Below, in pieces: positions 19,101 to 49,777 of a DNA stretch of 64,000 bases. Each line of letters opens with the position of its first letter. Position 1 is the stretch's first letter. The notes under the pieces are model-generated. The model worked only from the letters and a program-made list of their open reading frames with translations, was not told where the DNA came from and made no database searches. The translations under genes were made by a program, and so were the position numbers. The stretch lies in the NCBI RefSeq assembly GCF_056712565.1, contig NZ_CM160072.1; one strand, written 5' to 3'.

Positions 19101-19151
19101 CAAATTTAGCAGTAAGCCGGTTATAAACCGGTGGTTGTAAAAGAATTCGGT

Positions 19152-19228
19152 GGAGCGGTAGTTCAGTCGGTTAGAATACCTGCCTGTCACGCAGGGGGTC
19201 GCGGGTTCGAGTCCCGTCCGTTCCGCCA
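19152..19228 (+). tRNA. aspU: tRNA-Asp (GTC anticodon), distal tRNA of the rrn operon
   Basis: GGAGCGGTAGTTCAGTCGGTTAGAATACCTGCCTGTCACGCAGG...TTCCGCCA; identical to the second copy at 27375-27451. Confidence 0.95.
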
Positions 19229-26510: not shown

Positions 26511-27242
26511 ATGAGCACTGCAATTACACGCCAGATCGTTCTCGATACCGAAACCACCGGTATGAACCAGATTGGTGCGCACTATGAAGGCCACAAGATC
26601 ATTGAGATTGGTGCCGTTGAAGTGGTGAACCGTCGCCTGACGGGCAATAACTTCCATGTTTATCTCAAACCCGATCGGCTGGTGGATCCGGAAGCCTTTG
26701 GCGTACATGGTATTGCCGATGAATTTTTGCTCGATAAGCCCACGTTTGCCGAGGTAGCCGATGAGTTCATGGACTATATCCGCGGCGCGGAGCTGGTGAT
26801 CCATAACGCAGCGTTCGATATCGGCTTTATGGACTACGAGTTTTCGTTGCTTAAGCGCGATATTCCGAAGACCAATACCTTCTGTAAGGTCACCGATAGC
26901 CTTGCGGTGGCGAGGAAAATGTTTCCCGGTAAGCGCAACAGCCTCGATGCGTTATGTGCCCGCTACGAAATAGATAACAGTAAACGAACGCTGCACGGGG
27001 CATTACTCGATGCCCAGATCCTTGCGGAAGTTTATCTGGCGATGACTGGTGGGCAAACGTCGATGGCTTTTGCGATGGAAGGAGAGACACAACAGCAACA
27101 AGGTGAAACAACAATTCAGCGCATTGTGCGTCAGGCAAGTAAGTTACGCGTTGTTTTTGCGACAGATGAAGAGCTTGCAGCACATGAAGCCCGTCTCGAT
27201 CTGGTGCAGAAGAAAGGCGGAAGCTGCCTCTGGCGGGCATAA
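26511..27242 (+). CDS. dnaQ: DNA polymerase III epsilon subunit (3'-5' proofreading exonuclease)
   Basis: 243-aa product from [19 protein letters not shown] (Exo I motif); divergent from rnhA. Confidence 0.9.
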
Positions 27243-27374
27243 ATACCTGTAAAAGGCGCTAAAAATAGCGACTTGGGCGATTTTTGCAGCAAACGATTCA
27301 AAAGATGAGAAAAACCGTTGACGAAGGGTGAGGCAATCCGTAATATTCGCCTCGTTCCCAACGGAACACAACGC

Positions 27375-27451
27375 GGAGCGGTAGTTCAGTCGGTTAGAAT
27401 ACCTGCCTGTCACGCAGGGGGTCGCGGGTTCGAGTCCCGTCCGTTCCGCCA
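27375..27451 (+). tRNA. aspV: tRNA-Asp (GTC anticodon); island-associated tRNA locus
   Basis: Exact repeat of the aspU sequence; immediately followed by an AT-rich region and the accessory island. Confidence 0.95.
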
Positions 27452-27453
27452 AA

Positions 27454-27510
27454 TTCACTCATGAAAATGAGTTCAGAGAGCCGCAAGATTTTTAATTTTG
27501 CGGTTTTTTC
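27454..27510 (+). terminator. Tandem hairpins downstream of aspV
   Basis: ACTCAT-GAAA-ATGAGT hairpin, then CCGCAA...TTGCGG hairpin followed by a T6 tract. Confidence 0.5.
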
Positions 27511-27779
27511 ATCTAAATCCCGCTATTTCTTCGGTCTATGATTTTGTTATGCTGTAAATGTGTTAATCACATATGATAGACCATGTCATTAATATTTAAT
27601 CATGCTATCGAATCATTCAATTTAAATATATTTGCACGTTATGATTTTCATTTTTCTATTGATTTAATGAATTTATATTTGCTGTTATTTTTTGTTTGTT
27701 CTGATTCAAGTGGAGTATATAATTAAAAATCGTTAGCTAAACATTACCATGATTATGACAGGCGAGGGAGTGTCCGATT

Positions 27780-28565
27780 ATGAATTTAAAAAAGGTTTGT
27801 TGTATATGTGTATTATTCTCGCTGCTTGCAGGATGTGCCTCTGAATCTCCTATTGATGAAAAAAAGAAAAAAACTCAAACCACACAAATTTCTATTAATA
27901 AAAACGTTCCCCAGCAACTAACAGACAAAGATTTATATGGTAATGAAACCACACTGGCTGTATCCGAGGAGGATATTCAAGCTGCGCTTGAAGGAGATGA
28001 GTTTCGTGTGCCTCTTAATTCTCCTGTAATACTTGTTCAGTCTGGCAGTCGCGCACCGGAAACCATTATGCAGGAGGAGATGAGAAAATATTATACAGTT
28101 GCCACATTTTCTGGCATTCCTGACAGGAAAAAAACTGTAACCTGTAATAAAGACAAAAACAAAGATGAAAGCCTGGATATTGTAGATGCCGAAAATATGA
28201 ACTGGATGCAGGCATTGCGTTTTGTTGCAGCAAAAGGCCATCAGAAAGCGATTATTGTTTTCCAGGATACGTTGCAGACAGGAAAATATGACTCTGGATT
28301 GAAATCAATAGTTTGGACAGATTATAAAAATCAAAAATTGACTGACACGATGTCACTGCGTTATTTGGTTCGATTCACGTTGGTGGATGTGGCTACAGGT
28401 GAGTGGGCTACCTGGTCGCCTGTGAATTATGAATCGAAAGTGATTTTTCCGCAGATAGGGAATAAAAATTCTGACAGCCTTGATGTGGCAGAACAGCAGA
28501 TTTCACAACTTAAGCAGAAAACGTATGCAGCAGTGGTTAAAGACCTGGTGAATCGATATCAGTAG
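27780..28565 (+). CDS. yafT: Lipoprotein YafT
   Basis: 261-aa ORF with lipobox (LLAGCASE), low GC, in AT-rich DNA next to aspV. Confidence 0.75.
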
Positions 28566-28904
28566 TGAGGTTTTATACCAGACGTTTTAGTGGTACTTAG
28601 CAAGAAAGAGCATTTCTCTTTTCTATTTTACACTATGGAACAAGTCTGCTAATTAATTTTACATATGTCTTTTAGGAGTGGTAAAAACTTTCCTAAAGTT
28701 ATTTATTGTCCTCTCAACATATAAGCTGTAATTCGAGTTTTCGGTTGAACTGTCAAAAATACATCATATACATCTATAAAACAGCAGGTACGGTTAATTA
28801 AGAATTTTTATTCGTGATTAACCGTACTTTGTCATTTTATCCTATAATGTTAAATTGCCTTTTTAAAATATAACAATAATGCAGATGAAAGACTCCCTGG
28901 TAAC

Positions 28905-29384
28905 TTAGAAAATCCGTTCACTCCAAAGGCTGTATGCACTGGTTCCGGCGACGCTGTGCTCCCAATTGATGCTCTCATAGGTAAATGACACAGACTCTTC
29001 CGCCTGCCCTGGACTGTCGTTAATGGTATGGGGAACGGTAAGGCCGATGTTTGAGAGCCGGGCGTTAGCCAGTTTCAGCTTGTAGTACGGTTCATTAATT
29101 CCAAAGCGGTTGGTGCGGTAGAATACAAAATCACAGGTCAGACATTCATTCTCTGAAATGGCCTTGCCCAGCAGAGGGGAGGATTTGTCCACCGGTTTCG
29201 TGATGGTCAACTCCTGATGGTTGACATTCTGCGCACGGCTCAGACCATGGGACAGTGACGTCACCATGATCTGATCCTGATGTGCAATCTGGGCTTTGTT
29301 ACCGATGGACGGCATTGACGAGCATCCGGATGAAATCAGCCCCTGAAGTTCTCCGTTCAGTGTCAGATAGACGGGATTTGCCAT
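28905..29384 (-). CDS. hcp: Hcp-family T6SS tube protein (second hcp copy)
   Basis: 159-aa product from MANPVYLTLNGELQG... with AAGGAG RBS 8 nt upstream; Hcp-like N-terminus; the ORF-track start at 29405 is an extension. Confidence 0.8.
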   Translation of the reverse strand: MANPVYLTLNGELQGLISSGCSSMPSIGNKAQIAHQDQIMVTSLSHGLSRAQNVNHQELTITKPVDKSSPLLGKAISENECLTCDFVFYRTNRFGINEPYYKLKLANARLSNIGLTVPHTINDSPGQAEESVSFTYESINWEHSVAGTSAYSLWSERIF

Positions 29385-29401
29385 TGTTATTCTCCTTAAT
29401 C

Positions 29402-30760
29402 TCAATGAGTTGGATGGACAGGTTCGGTTCTGTTATCCGTTGCCATATCCTGTCCGGTATTTTTCAGCAGCAGCCAGCGGCTTAACAGCCCGTCCAGCCG
29501 TTCGTTGATCTCTTTTTCCAACGCCTGTGTGTCCTGCTTCTGTGTACGGGTCTCCTGGTACTGCGTCAGCAGGTACTCCAGTGGTGTTTCTTGATTCAGT
29601 AACCGTTCGGCCTGCCAGGTCACCGTTTTGATATACGATAGGGTGAAACCCTGTTTCTCCGTCTCCTTCTTCATCATCAAATCTGCAAAATCCCGCAAAT
29701 TCTGCCGCGCTTGTTGCCAGCCCTTCATCTGCGGACTGGCTTGCGCCCGGTTTCTCAGCGTGTTGCTCCACATCCTGCTGGCTTCCTGCTGTTGCAGGCT
29801 TTCCGGCCAGAGGGTGTCTGCGGTGCGCATCATCTGCATTCCGGTTTCCAGCGGCTGTAGTGGCGGGGCATTCAGAAGCTGTTGCAGGTACTGTTCATAT
29901 TCTTTCAGTACCGGGGATGCCAACCAGACGGTGGCGGCTCCCTGTGTGGTATCCCTGACCTGTGTAAGCTGCTGCTGCATCGGATACGCCTGCCACCACC
30001 AGAGTGCAGATGCGATAACGGCAGTACAGGCGGCACCGGCAACAAAACCTTTTACCGTGTCGCCCTGTTTTGCTTTGTCGGCGTTATCTGCCACACCGCG
30101 CACCCCCACCCGCATTTCCGGCAGGTCGGGTAGGGGGGGCATGGTTTCCGCTGTGGCGGAAGCCGTGCCTTCAGGCGCATAGACCAGCGTTCTGACCATG
30201 GTCTGTGCCGCCGTATCAGTACGGTTTCTGGGCTGCGGCTCAAACCGCTTGCGTGTGTTCTGCACAAAATAAAGCAGATTTTCCACGCGCGGCTGGCGCT
30301 TCAGTTCCACTTGCTGGAGTTTGTCGCAGATAAGCTGCAAAGCCCGTTCCGTGCGGTAGAGCAACGAAAGATCATTTTCGGAAAAGGAAACCTGCTGGCG
30401 CAGGATATTCCCGGTGCGGGTGTTGAACCAGTCCAGCATCTCAGTCCGCGCCGGACCACTCTGCGGCCAGAATTTATCCCATTCGTGGATGATCATCGCA
30501 GCCAGCAGTTCCGCGCCTTCACAGAACCCTGCCAGTCCCTGATTACGTGTACGTGCCAGCGTATAGTAGGTGGCGGTATGCAAATCCACCCCGTTGGCCT
30601 TAAAAATCGACAGCGCCAGCGATTCCACCAGTTTCCAGTTCAGCTCCGGCTGTGACGGGTGGTTAGCTTTGTTAATTTCTTCGCGGATGGCGCTGAACTC
30701 CGGCAGGGCGCGCGGATCGCTGCCGGTAACGATAGTTTGTGTCAGTGCGTAATTGCTCAT
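29402..30760 (-). CDS. ImpA-N-domain T6SS-associated protein (VasL/TssA-like)
   Basis: 452-aa product from MSNYALTQTIVTGSDPRALPEFSAIREEINK (ImpA N-terminal motif), predicted TM segment mid-protein; start inferred at the ATG 10 nt after the tssM stop. Confidence 0.6.
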   Translation of the reverse strand: MSNYALTQTIVTGSDPRALPEFSAIREEINKANHPSQPELNWKLVESLALSIFKANGVDLHTATYYTLARTRNQGLAGFCEGAELLAAMIIHEWDKFWPQSGPARTEMLDWFNTRTGNILRQQVSFSENDLSLLYRTERALQLICDKLQQVELKRQPRVENLLYFVQNTRKRFEPQPRNRTDTAAQTMVRTLVYAPEGTASATAETMPPLPDLPEMRVGVRGVADNADKAKQGDTVKGFVAGAACTAVIASALWWWQAYPMQQQLTQVRDTTQGAATVWLASPVLKEYEQYLQQLLNAPPLQPLETGMQMMRTADTLWPESLQQQEASRMWSNTLRNRAQASPQMKGWQQARQNLRDFADLMMKKETEKQGFTLSYIKTVTWQAERLLNQETPLEYLLTQYQETRTQKQDTQALEKEINERLDGLLSRWLLLKNTGQDMATDNRTEPVHPTH

Positions 30761-48507: not shown

Positions 48508-49212
48508 AAAAATGTTCCCGTTCAGGCCATGAGCACAGCATTTTCGTACTGCATACAAATACCGACAATACCGTTTCAGTGGCAGTTAGATAATGTAACC
48601 TTCCTTCTGTTGTGATCGGTATTCTACTCATGAAATAAAACATTAAAAGAACTATTTATATTTTTGAAAGAGATGTATCCTTCATTATTAATACATAAGA
48701 GTTAAATCAATTTGGTATTTATAGACTTAGTGAATATGATTTTACGGCTAATAAAGTTACATAATGCATTGATTTATATGTGTTTATTAAGTTGATTAAT
48801 AAGTTTTATGTATGGTTTTATAAATAAATTAATTAATTGCTAGAAATACATCATAAGAAATTCCTTTAAGGAATATCTTAATTGCGTGCCGGAACGATTG
48901 TGAAGTAAGTGTTGTAATGATTGATTTTTGAAGAAATTGTAGGTTTTTATGGGGGTAAGGATACGTTATGGATAATTCTACTGTTGATGTTGATATATTT
49001 TTAGCTTATGTAATCGTGTTCTGAAATTGACTAAAAATATATTTAAACACCATAAAAGAGTTTTTCGGTAGGTGCTAATTACGTGTGCCTGTAACTCGAA
49101 TAAAGAAAAGGGTGTGGTTCCTGATGTGAGCCGCATCACACTCTAACCTGTCGGGGATTAACGACGGGTTGTTCGTAAAACAGCAGTTGATAATTTCACA
49201 AGGAGTTCATAA
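48508..49212. promoter_or_regulatory. AT-rich divergent control region between tssB (minus) and hcp (plus)
   Basis: ~700 bp of strongly AT-rich non-coding DNA between the two divergent T6SS transcription units. Confidence 0.5.
49125..49140. promoter_or_regulatory. Candidate CRP-type binding site upstream of hcp
   Basis: TGTGA-GCCGCA-TCACA: both pentameric half-sites with 6-bp spacer, centred ~80 bp upstream of the hcp ATG. Confidence 0.3.
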
Positions 49213-49731
49213 ATGCCAACCCCATGTTACATTTCAATTACAGGTCAGACCCAGGGGAACATCACTGCCGGTGCTTTCACCGCAGATTCTGTCGGCAATA
49301 TCTACGTGCAGGGACACGAAGATGAAATGCTGGTGCAGGAGTTTCTGCATAACGTTACTGTTCCAACCGATCCGCAGTCTGGTCAGCCTTCCGGGCAGCG
49401 TGCTCACAAACCGTTCATTTTCACCGTGGCGCTGAACAAAGCCGTTCCGCTGCTGTACAACGCGCTGGCCTCCGGTGAAATGCTGCCGAAAGTGGAGCTG
49501 CACTGGTGGCGTACCTCTGTTGAAGGCAAGCAGGAGCACTACTTCACCACACGTCTTACTGACGCGACGATTGTGGACATGAACCTGCATATGCCGCACT
49601 GCCAGGACCCTGCACAGCGTGAGTTTACGCAATTGCTCGCAGTATCACTGGCCTACCGTAAGGTTGAGTGGGAGCACATCAAATCCGGTACTTCTGGTGC
49701 CGATGACTGGCGTGCACCGCTGGAAGCATAA
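49213..49731 (+). CDS. hcp: T6SS tube protein Hcp (TssD)
   Basis: 172-aa ORF, Hcp-like, preceded by AAGGAG RBS. Confidence 0.9.
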   Translation: MPTPCYISITGQTQGNITAGAFTADSVGNIYVQGHEDEMLVQEFLHNVTVPTDPQSGQPSGQRAHKPFIFTVALNKAVPLLYNALASGEMLPKVELHWWRTSVEGKQEHYFTTRLTDATIVDMNLHMPHCQDPAQREFTQLLAVSLAYRKVEWEHIKSGTSGADDWRAPLEA

Positions 49732-49740
49732 ATCTGAGTC

Positions 49741-49777
49741 AACAACATCCTGCCTCCGTGCAGGATGTTGTTTTTGT
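49741..49777 (+). terminator. Intrinsic terminator/attenuator between hcp and vgrG
   Basis: AACAACATCCTGC-CTCCGT-GCAGGATGTTGTT perfect 13-bp stem followed by TTTTGT. Confidence 0.7.

What the first reader, a model, noticed from the sequence alone, without database searches (positions are those of the whole stretch)
28788..28827. 11-bp perfect inverted repeat in the AT-rich island border downstream of the distal hcp
GTACGGTTAAT ... ATTAACCGTAC with an 18-nt loop sits ~80 nt beyond the minus-strand hcp stop in the yafT-hcp spacer. It may terminate the long T6SS operon or be a recombination/insertion scar at the island's left border.
Basis: seen in the sequence. Interest (0 to 1): 0.2.

Follow-up and report, generated by a model that had tools for sequence, protein, structure and literature searches.

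The report
Terminator-like hairpin between yafT and hcp
The inverted repeat is real and conserved, and is most likely an ordinary transcription-terminator hairpin between two genes that point at each other. Its sequence fits stopping transcripts from the yafT side better than stopping the type VI secretion operon, and it is not an island insertion scar.

Summary
The repeat is exactly where reported (28788-28798 / 28817-28827). It is really a 40-nt near-perfect palindrome, 16 of 18 arm positions complementary around a 4-nt centre. It is the strongest local fold in the 339-nt, 29% GC spacer between convergent yafT (+) and hcp (-). The window matches E. coli ATCC 11775. The spacer is single-copy, occurs in about 580 of 5426 complete E. 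coli genomes, always joins yafT to this hcp type, and also occurs in E. whittamii. The hairpin is nearly invariant, but no pair covaries. The features are polar. The + (yafT-sense) RNA folds better (-18.6 vs -14.4 kcal/mol) and is followed directly by UUUGUCAUUUU (TransTermHP tail score -4.24). The hcp-sense tail CUGCUGUUUU scores -2.39 and fails the -2.5 cut-off. yafT alleles without this hairpin carry a GC-rich hairpin just after their stop codon; alleles with it have lost that one. Best reading: a Rho-independent-type terminator for yafT-sense transcripts that may also pause or end hcp-sense transcripts. The scar idea fails, because the hairpin lies 90 nt inside island-type-specific DNA and no border repeats exist. 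The GTACGG/CCGTAC resemblance to AtaR/KacA antitoxin operators fails on spacing. No transcript data exist. Ordinary, low interest.

The parts
28788..28827 (.). 40-nt near-perfect palindrome (hairpin): 13 pairs, a 1x1 mismatch, 4 pairs and a 4-nt loop. The + strand RNA has a U28799.G28816 wobble that is an A.C mismatch on the - strand.
   Evidence: It is the strongest local hairpin of the spacer on both strands. It is identical over 63 nt in 518 of 579 E. coli genomes. In the nine-sequence alignment 13 of 17 pairs never vary.
28828..28842 (+). T-rich tail TTTGTCATTTTATCC directly after the stem on the yafT-sense strand.
   Evidence: Tail score -4.24, within the top 0.7% of window 15-mers and the top 2.9% of spacer 15-mers. 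The formula and the -2.5 cut-off were checked in PMC1852404. The score is the same in E. whittamii.
28773..28787 (-). Tail on the hcp-sense strand, CTGCTGTTTTATAGA. The T run starts 6 nt after the stem.
   Evidence: Tail score -2.39 in the window and -1.82 in E. whittamii, both short of the -2.5 cut-off.
28731..28787 (.). Conserved non-coding block just upstream (+ sense) of the hairpin, including an invariant 34-mer, TCGAGTTTTCGGTTGAACTGTCAAAAATACATCA. Its function is unknown.
   Evidence: Identity to E. whittamii is 94-100% here, against about 79% for 28566-28734 and 85-89% for 28828-28904. The 34-mer is invariant in nine aligned sequences. The 31-aa ORF 28706-28801 is broken by a 1-nt insertion in E. 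whittamii.
28566..28697 (+). Backbone-derived part of the spacer (yafT 3' flank). It is homologous to the yafT flank of HH45 but lacks the GC-rich hairpin found right after yafT in other alleles.
   Evidence: Homology to HH45 covers window 28585-28697. A GC hairpin of -15 to -24 kcal/mol lies 6-32 nt after the stop in K-12, HH45 and other genera. It is absent here, where the best local hairpin is -4 to -15 kcal/mol, AT-rich, starts 5-23 nt after the stop and has no T-rich tail.
28698..28904 (.). Spacer segment specific to this hcp/T6SS type. It contains the hairpin.
   Evidence: There is no homology to K-12 or HH45, none to 18 loci from other genera that encode 69-96% identical Hcp, and none in true plasmids.
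28880..28925 (-). Weak, G.U-rich hairpin spanning the hcp stop codon, followed by TTATTGTTATATTTT. It is an alternative first stop signal for hcp-sense transcripts.
   Evidence: -12.4 kcal/mol and tail score -4.14. The scan that found it is not specific.
27780..28565 (+). yafT (lipoprotein YafT), the gene upstream in + sense.
   Evidence: It is 81% identical in protein to K-12 YafT.
28905..29384 (-). hcp, the last gene of the minus-strand T6SS operon (tssM, vasL, hcp).

Best explanation
The palindrome encodes an RNA hairpin that serves as the transcription-termination and 3'-end element of the convergent yafT/hcp spacer. It works mainly as a Rho-independent (intrinsic) terminator for + strand transcripts that leave yafT. 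RNA polymerase transcribes the 40-nt palindrome, the 17-pair stem forms in the exit channel, and the weak rU:dA hybrid over the flush UUUGUCAUUUU tract lets the transcript release. That would give yafT a 3' UTR of about 260-275 nt and keep yafT-sense transcription from running antisense into hcp and the T6SS operon. For transcripts coming the other way from hcp, the same DNA gives a weaker hairpin with no flush U-tract. It would then act at most as a pause site, a leaky terminator or a 3'-protective hairpin, possibly helped by head-on polymerase collisions. Shown: the structure, its polarity, its position, its conservation, and the loss of the ancestral yafT-proximal hairpin. Inferred: every statement about transcription.
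For: The hairpin is the strongest local fold in the spacer on both strands. The + strand folds at -18.6 kcal/mol against -14.4 for the - strand, because U28799.G28816 pairs only in + RNA. In E. whittamii this pair is C-G. The + tail scores -4.24, top 0.7% of window 15-mers, while the - tail scores -2.39, against the TransTermHP cut-off of -2.5. By hand, with TransTermHP's published pair energies, the hairpin scores about -14.6 on + and -12.4 on -, against a cut-off of -2. The hairpin lies downstream of both stop codons in a convergent spacer. In K-12, HH45 and most of the other enterobacterial loci examined, yafT is followed within 6-32 nt by a GC-rich hairpin of -15 to -24 kcal/mol. Every allele that carries the AT-rich hairpin, and E. 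whittamii, has lost that one, which fits functional replacement. The hairpin is identical over 63 nt in 518 of 579 genomes, and 97.5% identical between E. coli and E. whittamii where the surrounding spacer is 79-89%. Hairpin elements between convergent E. coli genes are reported as widespread bidirectional terminators.
Against: There are no transcript data. The tool's consensus terminator scan found nothing in 27200-29600, probably because the stem has an internal mismatch and is AT-rich. The U-tract is interrupted (UUUGUCAUUUU). The site is 222 nt from the yafT stop, which is long for a simple terminator. No pair shows a compensatory change, so evolution supports conservation but not RNA structure specifically. 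One strain, MS20645, carries three substitutions that break three middle pairs. The ancestral GC hairpins themselves lack good U-tails, so 'terminator replacement' is only an inference. The conserved 57 nt upstream of the hairpin is not explained by a terminator alone. My own genome-wide hairpin-plus-tail scan is not specific: about 130 hits against about 74 in shuffles.
Confidence: 0.5

Rival explanations
1. One reading: the hairpin is mainly the terminator or 3'-end stabiliser of the long minus-strand T6SS operon (tssM, vasL, hcp).
For: It lies only 77 nt past the hcp stop and folds at -14.4 kcal/mol on that strand (z = -6.8). It always travels with this hcp type, even in O145 strains where only an hcp pseudogene remains. 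UUUU follows 6 nt after the stem, UUUUU in E. whittamii. Hairpins between convergent genes can stop both directions without canonical tails.
Against: The tail score of -2.39, or -1.82 in E. whittamii, fails the -2.5 cut-off, and the six nucleotides next to the stem are CUGCUG. The stem is 4 kcal/mol weaker than on the + strand. A separate candidate, a hairpin over the stop codon followed by UUAUUGUUAUAUUUU, lies upstream of it.
Confidence: 0.2
2. The hairpin is the terminator of an unannotated small RNA. This could be an independent gene or a fragment processed from the yafT 3' UTR, with its functional part in the conserved 57 nt upstream (28731-28787).
For: A block of about 115 nt (28731-28845) is 94-100% identical between E. 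coli and E. whittamii, while the flanking spacer is 79-89% and the neighbouring genes are 90-93%. A 34-mer is invariant in nine alleles. The layout of conserved stretch, then hairpin, then U-rich tail on the + strand is that of enterobacterial sRNAs and 3'UTR-derived sRNAs (my own knowledge). The block is non-coding: its ORF is frameshifted in E. whittamii.
Against: There is no Rfam match at E <= 5. No convincing promoter exists: the candidate -10 region at 28765-28773 is the most variable part of the block. Only one outgroup species is available. Within E. coli the whole island-side segment is uniformly 95-97% identical, so part of the pattern may reflect recent spread rather than selection. 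The U-tail is interrupted, which is poor for Hfq-type sRNAs.
Confidence: 0.1
3. The palindrome is a protein-binding site. In particular it could be an operator-like site, or the fossil of a promoter, for a DUF1778 ribbon-helix-helix antitoxin of the AtaR/KacA/TacA family, whose half-sites are GTACGG and CCGTAC.
For: A literature string search for the arm hit the KacAT operator oligo AAATGTACGGTTATTAACCGTACATGA. The E. coli ataRT operator (ATGTACGGTGACATACCGTACAT) and an IncF plasmid homologue (TGTACGGTATTTTTCCGTAC) share the GTACGG/CCGTAC inverted half-sites. The window's half-sites lie 21 bp further apart, which is two helical turns.
Against: All three characterised or homologous operators have N7 between the hexamers; the window has N28. 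No DUF1778 or GNAT gene or remnant adjoins it, since there are no ORFs in the spacer. The symmetry runs through the whole 40 nt, and E. whittamii improves it, which a hairpin needs and two separated half-sites do not. A chromosome that carries the hairpin has no ataRT copy at 80% identity or above. A 6-bp motif found in an open-ended search is weak evidence.
Confidence: 0.04
4. The palindrome is a recombination or insertion scar (att-like site) that marks the left border of the T6SS island.
For: It lies in AT-rich DNA near the transition from the aspV/yafT backbone to the island, and the island sits next to a tRNA gene.
Against: The junction with backbone homology is at about 28697, 90 nt away. 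There is no direct repeat of the tRNA-Asp 3' end inside the island, and no 12-mer from the spacer recurs at the right border near 57.2 kb. The element is single-copy per genome and absent from true plasmids. No integrase gene adjoins it. A dif-like XerD arm at 28845-28855 is not conserved in E. whittamii.
Confidence: 0.04
5. It is a chance palindrome in AT-rich spacer DNA with no function, conserved only because the locus is young.
For: There is no covariation. Within E. coli the whole 28698-28904 segment is 95-100% identical. One natural strain tolerates a disrupted stem. Two unrelated metagenome contigs carry the same 11-nt arms, about the number expected by chance.
Against: P = 0.008 for such a repeat in a spacer of this composition, before counting the extended symmetry. 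The hairpin is more conserved against E. whittamii than its flanks or the neighbouring genes. The U-tract sits flush with the stem.
Confidence: 0.1

Closest known systems
Rho-independent (intrinsic) transcription terminators of E. coli
   Same: A stable hairpin downstream of a stop codon. The base of the stem is GC-rich (4 of the 6 closing pairs are G-C). A 4-nt loop is followed at once by a U-rich tract on the + strand. It passes the TransTermHP hairpin and tail thresholds in that direction.
   Different: The stem is unusually long (17 pairs) and mostly A-U, with an internal mismatch. The U-tract is interrupted. The site is 222 nt from the yafT stop. The session's consensus scan does not call it. 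No transcript end has been mapped.
Bidirectional terminators between convergent E. coli gene pairs (Ju et al. 2019, as described in bioRxiv 10.1101/2022.10.23.513370)
   Same: A single hairpin-encoding element in the spacer between two convergent genes that can fold on both strands. Such elements are described as hairpin pause sites where converging polymerases collide.
   Different: The flanks are not symmetric: the + strand has a good tail and the - strand a poor one. Overlapping 3' ends have not been shown. The expression levels of yafT and of this T6SS operon are unknown.
The GC-rich hairpin (CTGCCGCC...GGCGGCAG) just after yafT in K-12, HH45 and in Citrobacter, Lelliottia, Buttiauxella and Superficieibacter
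   Same: It occupies the same convergent spacer downstream of yafT and has similar stability, -15 to -24 kcal/mol. The two hairpins are mutually exclusive across alleles.
   Different: The sequence is unrelated. The GC hairpin lies 6-32 nt after the stop rather than 222 nt, is GC-rich, and lacks a good U-tail in either direction.
Operators of DUF1778-GNAT toxin-antitoxin operons (kacAT, ataRT)
   Same: Inverted GTACGG / CCGTAC hexamers. With kacAT the match extends to GTACGGTTA.
   Different: The spacing is N28 rather than N7. There is no adjacent toxin-antitoxin operon. The site is at gene 3' ends, not at a promoter.

Membership tests
Intrinsic (Rho-independent) terminator | Stable RNA hairpin, better than composition-matched shuffles | tested here: met
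   -18.6 kcal/mol on + and -14.4 on -, z about -6.6 and -6.8, 0 of 200 shuffles as good. It is the strongest hairpin in the spacer.
Intrinsic (Rho-independent) terminator | U-rich tract directly 3' of the stem, yafT-sense (+) strand | tested here: met
   UUUGUCAUUUUAUCC scores -4.24 against the -2.5 cut-off, with 5 T in the first 8 nt.
Intrinsic (Rho-independent) terminator | U-rich tract directly 3' of the stem, hcp-sense (-) strand | tested here: not met
   CUGCUGUUUUAUAGA scores -2.39, and -1.82 in E. whittamii.
Intrinsic (Rho-independent) terminator | Match to a consensus terminator scan (uninterrupted stem with at least 3 G-C pairs, loop of 3-8 nt, T run) | tested here: inconclusive
   The scan returned 0 sites in 27200-29600. 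The stem has a 1x1 mismatch, so its uninterrupted outer part encloses a 14-nt 'loop'. My own looser scan calls it at -20.2 kcal/mol with tail -3.73, but that scan is not specific.
Intrinsic (Rho-independent) terminator | Transcript 3' ends map to the U-tract | not testable with these tools
   No transcriptome data are accessible, and the literature searches found none for this locus.
Bidirectional terminator of a convergent gene pair | A single hairpin element in the spacer of two convergent genes that folds on both strands | tested here: met
   yafT (+) ends at 28565 and hcp (-) ends at 28905, with one dominant hairpin between them.
Bidirectional terminator of a convergent gene pair | Overlapping 3' ends of both transcripts at the element | not testable with these tools
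   This needs SEnd-seq or Term-seq.
DUF1778 (AtaR/KacA) antitoxin operator | Inverted GTACGG / CCGTAC half-sites | tested here: met
   GTACGG at 28788-28793 and CCGTAC at 28822-28827, compared with the operators.
DUF1778 (AtaR/KacA) antitoxin operator | Half-sites separated by 7 bp (13 bp centre to centre) | tested here: not met
   The separation is 28 bp here, against N7 in kacAT, ataRT and an IncF plasmid homologue.
DUF1778 (AtaR/KacA) antitoxin operator | Lies in the promoter of a DUF1778-GNAT operon | tested here: not met
   No ORF of 20 aa or more with such similarity lies in the spacer, and the flanking genes are yafT and hcp.
Island attachment-site or insertion scar | Sits at the backbone/island junction and is repeated at the other border or copies the tRNA 3' end | tested here: not met
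   The junction is at about 28697. No tRNA-Asp 3' repeat lies in the island and no spacer 12-mer recurs at the right border.
Dispersed palindromic repeats (REP, ERIC, MITE) | Many copies per genome | tested here: not met
   There is exactly one place per genome in about 580 genomes.
Any described RNA family (Rfam 15) | Covariance-model match | tested here: not met
   Only tRNA-Asp matched in 27000-29600 at E <= 5.

The most novel reading that the evidence does not exclude
The hairpin is the 3' module of an unannotated, Escherichia-specific regulatory RNA of roughly 60-275 nt on the + strand. It would either be processed from the yafT 3' UTR or be transcribed on its own. It would comprise the invariant 34-mer and the rest of the conserved 28731-28845 block, and it would travel only with this T6SS type, for example to control the T6SS or yafT post-transcriptionally.
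Probability: 0.1. Interest if true: 0.4.

Novelty: new member of a known kind. Interest (0 to 1): 0.12.

Why it matters
It matters little beyond annotation. If confirmed, it defines the 3' boundary of yafT transcripts and shields the last gene of this E. coli T6SS cluster (called T6SS2 / GI-16 in APEC IMT5155) from antisense read-through. It would also be a small example of one terminator hairpin being lost and another, unrelated one taking over in the same spacer. The conserved 57 nt next to it is the only part that could hide something new, namely a small RNA.

Tried and rejected
- **Rfam scan** of 27000-29600 at E <= 5 found only tRNA-Asp.
- **Consensus terminator scan** found 0 sites. The promoter-like sites it reported around the hairpin are not conserved.
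- **Small-protein reading:** the 31-aa ORF 28706-28801 has a TTG start and no Shine-Dalgarno sequence, and is frameshifted in E. whittamii. The minus-strand ORFs are 4-5 codons long.
- **sRNA promoter** (TTGAAC at 28745-28750 plus TATACA at 28767-28772): the -10 candidate lies in the most variable part of the block.
- **dif/XerD-like arm** TAATGTTAAAT at 28845-28855: the XerC side matches 3 of 11, and the arm is not conserved in E. whittamii.
- **ArcA-box resemblance** (GTTAATTAA, from memory): the repeats here are inverted rather than direct, and it could not be tested.
- **Remnant of yafU or ykfM in 28698-28904:** blastn and tblastx found no similarity.
- **Homologues of the block next to related hcp genes** in 18 loci from other genera: none found by nhmmer or blastn-short.
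- **Plasmid collection:** the only hit was an E. coli chromosome misfiled as a plasmid.
- **Metagenome scan** for the same arms with a different loop gave 2 unrelated hits, about the chance level.
- **Toxin-antitoxin operator lead:** rejected on spacing and context.
- **Covariation test:** uninformative, with 0 double changes.
- **My own hairpin-plus-tail genome scan:** too unspecific to calibrate anything, about 130 hits against about 74 in shuffles.
- **Literature:** searches for transcript data at yafT/hcp in B2 strains found nothing usable.

Full report
**What is there**

The window is identical over the tested stretch to E. coli ATCC 11775. The local order is:
- rnhA (-) and dnaQ (+)
- tRNA-Asp aspV, 27375-27448
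- yafT (+), 27780-28565
- a 339-nt spacer with about 29% GC
- hcp (-), 28905-29384, then vasL and tssM
- a T6SS cluster running to about 57.3 kb, followed by yafV, ivy and fadE

This cluster is the one called T6SS2 / GI-16, 'between yafT and ramA-1', in APEC IMT5155.

The reported arms are exactly at 28788-28798 and 28817-28827. The 18 nt between them are themselves symmetric about the same axis. The element is therefore a 40-nt palindrome with 16 of 18 arm positions complementary and a 4-nt centre.

As RNA it forms 13 pairs, a 1x1 mismatch, 4 more pairs and a UUUU loop. The fold is -18.6 kcal/mol on the + strand and -14.4 kcal/mol on the - strand. Each lies more than 6 SD below shuffled sequences.

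A perfect inverted repeat of 11 bp or more with a loop of 3-30 nt is expected 0.4 times per shuffled window. In a spacer of this composition its probability is P = 0.008.

**Distribution and conservation**

The spacer is single-copy. It occurs in 579-582 of 5426 complete E. coli genomes and always joins yafT to this hcp type. RefSeq annotates nothing there.

Over 63 nt centred on the hairpin, 518 of 579 genomes are identical. In spacer alleles that are 93-99% identical overall, the hairpin stem is unchanged; the only difference inside the 40 nt is one substitution in the terminal stem pair next to the loop, in SCU-485.

An Hcp-based scan of one genome per species found the same spacer and hairpin only in E. 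whittamii. It also turned up an E. coli-like MAG labelled Citrobacter. Eighteen further loci from other genera, with 69-96% identical Hcp, have unrelated DNA downstream of hcp.

Against E. whittamii the identities are:

| Region | Identity |
|---|---|
| Hairpin, 28788-28827 | 97.5% |
| 53 nt upstream in + sense, 28735-28787 | 94.3% |
| Rest of the spacer | 79-89% |
| yafT | 90.5% |
| hcp | 92.7% |

The single difference in the stem turns the U.G wobble into C-G. There are no compensatory double changes, and 13 of 17 pairs never vary. One strain, MS20645, has three substitutions that open three middle pairs. So there is selection-like conservation, but no covariation proof of an RNA structure.

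**Where the island border is**

K-12 has no T6SS here and lacks the hairpin. HH45 carries a different T6SS type at the same site. It shares homology with the window only over 28585-28697. After that HH45 has a yafU-like gene, while the window has 207 nt of type-specific DNA that contains the hairpin.

O145 strains have lost nearly the whole cluster. They keep yafT, the spacer with the hairpin, an hcp pseudogene, a vasL fragment and yafV.

There is no repeat of the tRNA-Asp 3' end in the island and no spacer repeat at the right border. The hairpin is therefore not at the junction and is not an att-like scar.

**Polarity**

The two strands are not equivalent.

- **The + (yafT-sense) RNA** gains a U.G pair that is an A.C mismatch in the - RNA, which accounts for the 4 kcal/mol difference.
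- **The + strand tail** begins flush with the stem: UUUGUCAUUUUAUCC. Its TransTermHP tail score is -4.24, in the top 0.7% of window 15-mers.
- **The hcp-sense tail** is CUGCUGUUUUAUAGA. It scores -2.39, and -1.82 in E. whittamii.

The scoring formula and the -2.5 threshold were checked in the TransTermHP paper. Using that paper's pair energies by hand, the hairpin scores about -14.6 on + and -12.4 on -, against a threshold of -2.

The session's consensus scan did not call the site, probably because of the internal mismatch. My own looser scan is too unspecific to serve as calibration.

On the hcp-sense strand there is also a weak, G.U-rich hairpin across the hcp stop codon. It is followed by UUAUUGUUAUAUUUU.

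**Context that supports a terminator role**

In K-12, HH45 and most of the other enterobacterial yafT loci examined, a GC-rich hairpin lies 6-32 nt after the yafT stop. Its core is CTGCCGCC...GGCGGCAG, its loops vary, and it folds at -15 to -24 kcal/mol.

In every allele that carries the AT-rich hairpin, and in E. whittamii, the homologous position has decayed. The best local hairpin there is AT-rich, at -4 to -15 kcal/mol, and has no T-rich tail.

The AT-rich hairpin is then the first strong hairpin with a U-tract that a yafT transcript meets. This is an inference of functional replacement. The GC hairpins themselves lack good U-tails.

Hairpin elements between convergent E. coli genes are described as widespread bidirectional terminators. 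They act as pause sites where converging polymerases collide. That gives a way for the element to also limit hcp-sense transcription without a canonical tail.

**A lead that did not hold**

A literature string search for the arm sequence hit the KacAT operator oligo. I recalled the AtaR sequence, confirmed it against the PDB, and used it to fetch the E. coli ataRT locus. I also fetched an IncF plasmid homologue.

All three operators are GTACGG-N7-CCGTAC. The window has GTACGG-N28-CCGTAC, has no toxin-antitoxin genes nearby, and sits at gene 3' ends. Its symmetry runs through all 40 nt, which a hairpin needs and two separated half-sites do not. I treat the resemblance as coincidence, at about 4%.

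**What remains unexplained**

The conserved 57 nt upstream of the hairpin, including an invariant 34-mer, is non-coding and has no convincing promoter. It could be the body of a small RNA or of a 3'UTR-derived RNA that ends at this hairpin.

Part of the pattern may instead reflect the young age of the island-side DNA within E. coli. Only one outgroup species is available.

**Verdict**

The 'terminator' interpretation is reasonable, but it most likely applies to yafT-sense rather than T6SS-sense transcripts, or to both weakly. The 'scar' interpretation is not supported. This is an ordinary kind of element, unannotated here, and every functional statement awaits 3'-end mapping.

Noticed in passing
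window 28566-28600; L001 2622-2660; L003 3970-4000; loci L009-L025: yafT in K-12, HH45 and most of the other enterobacterial loci examined is followed within 6-32 nt by a conserved GC-rich hairpin (CTGCCGCC...GGCGGCAG, -15 to -24 kcal/mol, variable loops). The yafT alleles linked to this T6SS type, and E. whittamii, have lost it.
   Followed up: yes
window 28731-28787: A non-coding block next to the hairpin, with the invariant 34-mer TCGAGTTTTCGGTTGAACTGTCAAAAATACATCA, is 94-100% conserved between E. coli and E. whittamii while the flanking spacer is about 79%. No ORF, promoter or Rfam match explains it.
   Followed up: partly
window 39865-39907: A perfect 17-bp inverted repeat (CGGCATGGCCTGACTGT, 9 nt, ACAGTCAGGCCATGCCG) at the 5' end of ORF 39274-39885 (-). 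The left arm lies inside the ORF and the right arm in the gap before ORF 40040-41386 (-), inside the T6SS operon. It is the longest perfect palindrome in the window.
   Followed up: no
window 49741-49773: A 13-bp inverted repeat (AACAACATCCTGC...GCAGGATGTTGTT, -19.8 kcal/mol, followed by TTTGTACG) lies 10 nt after the plus-strand hcp/tssD gene (49213-49731). It is a likely terminator or attenuator after the proximal hcp.
   Followed up: partly
window 48993-49042: A 12-bp AT-rich inverted repeat (ATATATTTTTAG...) lies in the divergent intergenic region between the two T6SS gene blocks, 48558-49213.
   Followed up: no
L005 (E. coli O145 RM12275) 1839-2521: O145 strains keep only an hcp pseudogene and a 153-nt vasL fragment between the spacer and yafV. 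The T6SS cluster was deleted internally and its left end, with the hairpin, was left in place. Strain 2017-02-2CC has another internal deletion that fuses vasL and sheath-gene fragments.
   Followed up: partly
L035 (E. coli MS20645) about 338-340, equivalent to window 28815-28817: A natural variant changes GTGATTAAC to GTTTATAAC in the 3' arm, breaking three middle pairs of the stem. It is the only stem-disrupting allele seen among the nine aligned sequences.
   Followed up: partly
window 28788-28793 and 28822-28827; L029 2955-2983; L034 470-490: The outer hexamers GTACGG / CCGTAC are the half-sites of DUF1778 (AtaR/KacA) antitoxin operators, but they are spaced N28 here instead of N7.
   Followed up: yes
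L038 1855-1890 (metagenome contig Ga0315271_10021662): An unrelated GC-rich bacterium has a 16-bp hairpin with the same core (CTGTACGGTTAATGCC TGCT GGCATTAACCGTACAG). It also lies between two convergent genes, and is probably a chance match.
   Followed up: partly
plasmid collection record NZ_CP141089.1: A 4.94-Mb E. coli chromosome is filed in the plasmid collection as a 'non-mobilizable plasmid'. It carries this spacer at 98.4% identity.
   Followed up: no
L008 (DXKH01000042.1, 'Citrobacter sp.' MAG): The contig is almost identical to E. coli across hcp, the spacer and yafT (Hcp 100%, YafT 99.6% identical), so it is probably a mis-binned E. coli contig.
   Followed up: no
window 19150-19226 and 27375-27448: There are two tRNA-Asp genes with identical 3' halves. 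The first, near 19.2 kb, is presumably aspU, lying downstream of 16S/23S-like rRNA sequence (gene names from my own knowledge of K-12). The second is aspV.
   Followed up: no
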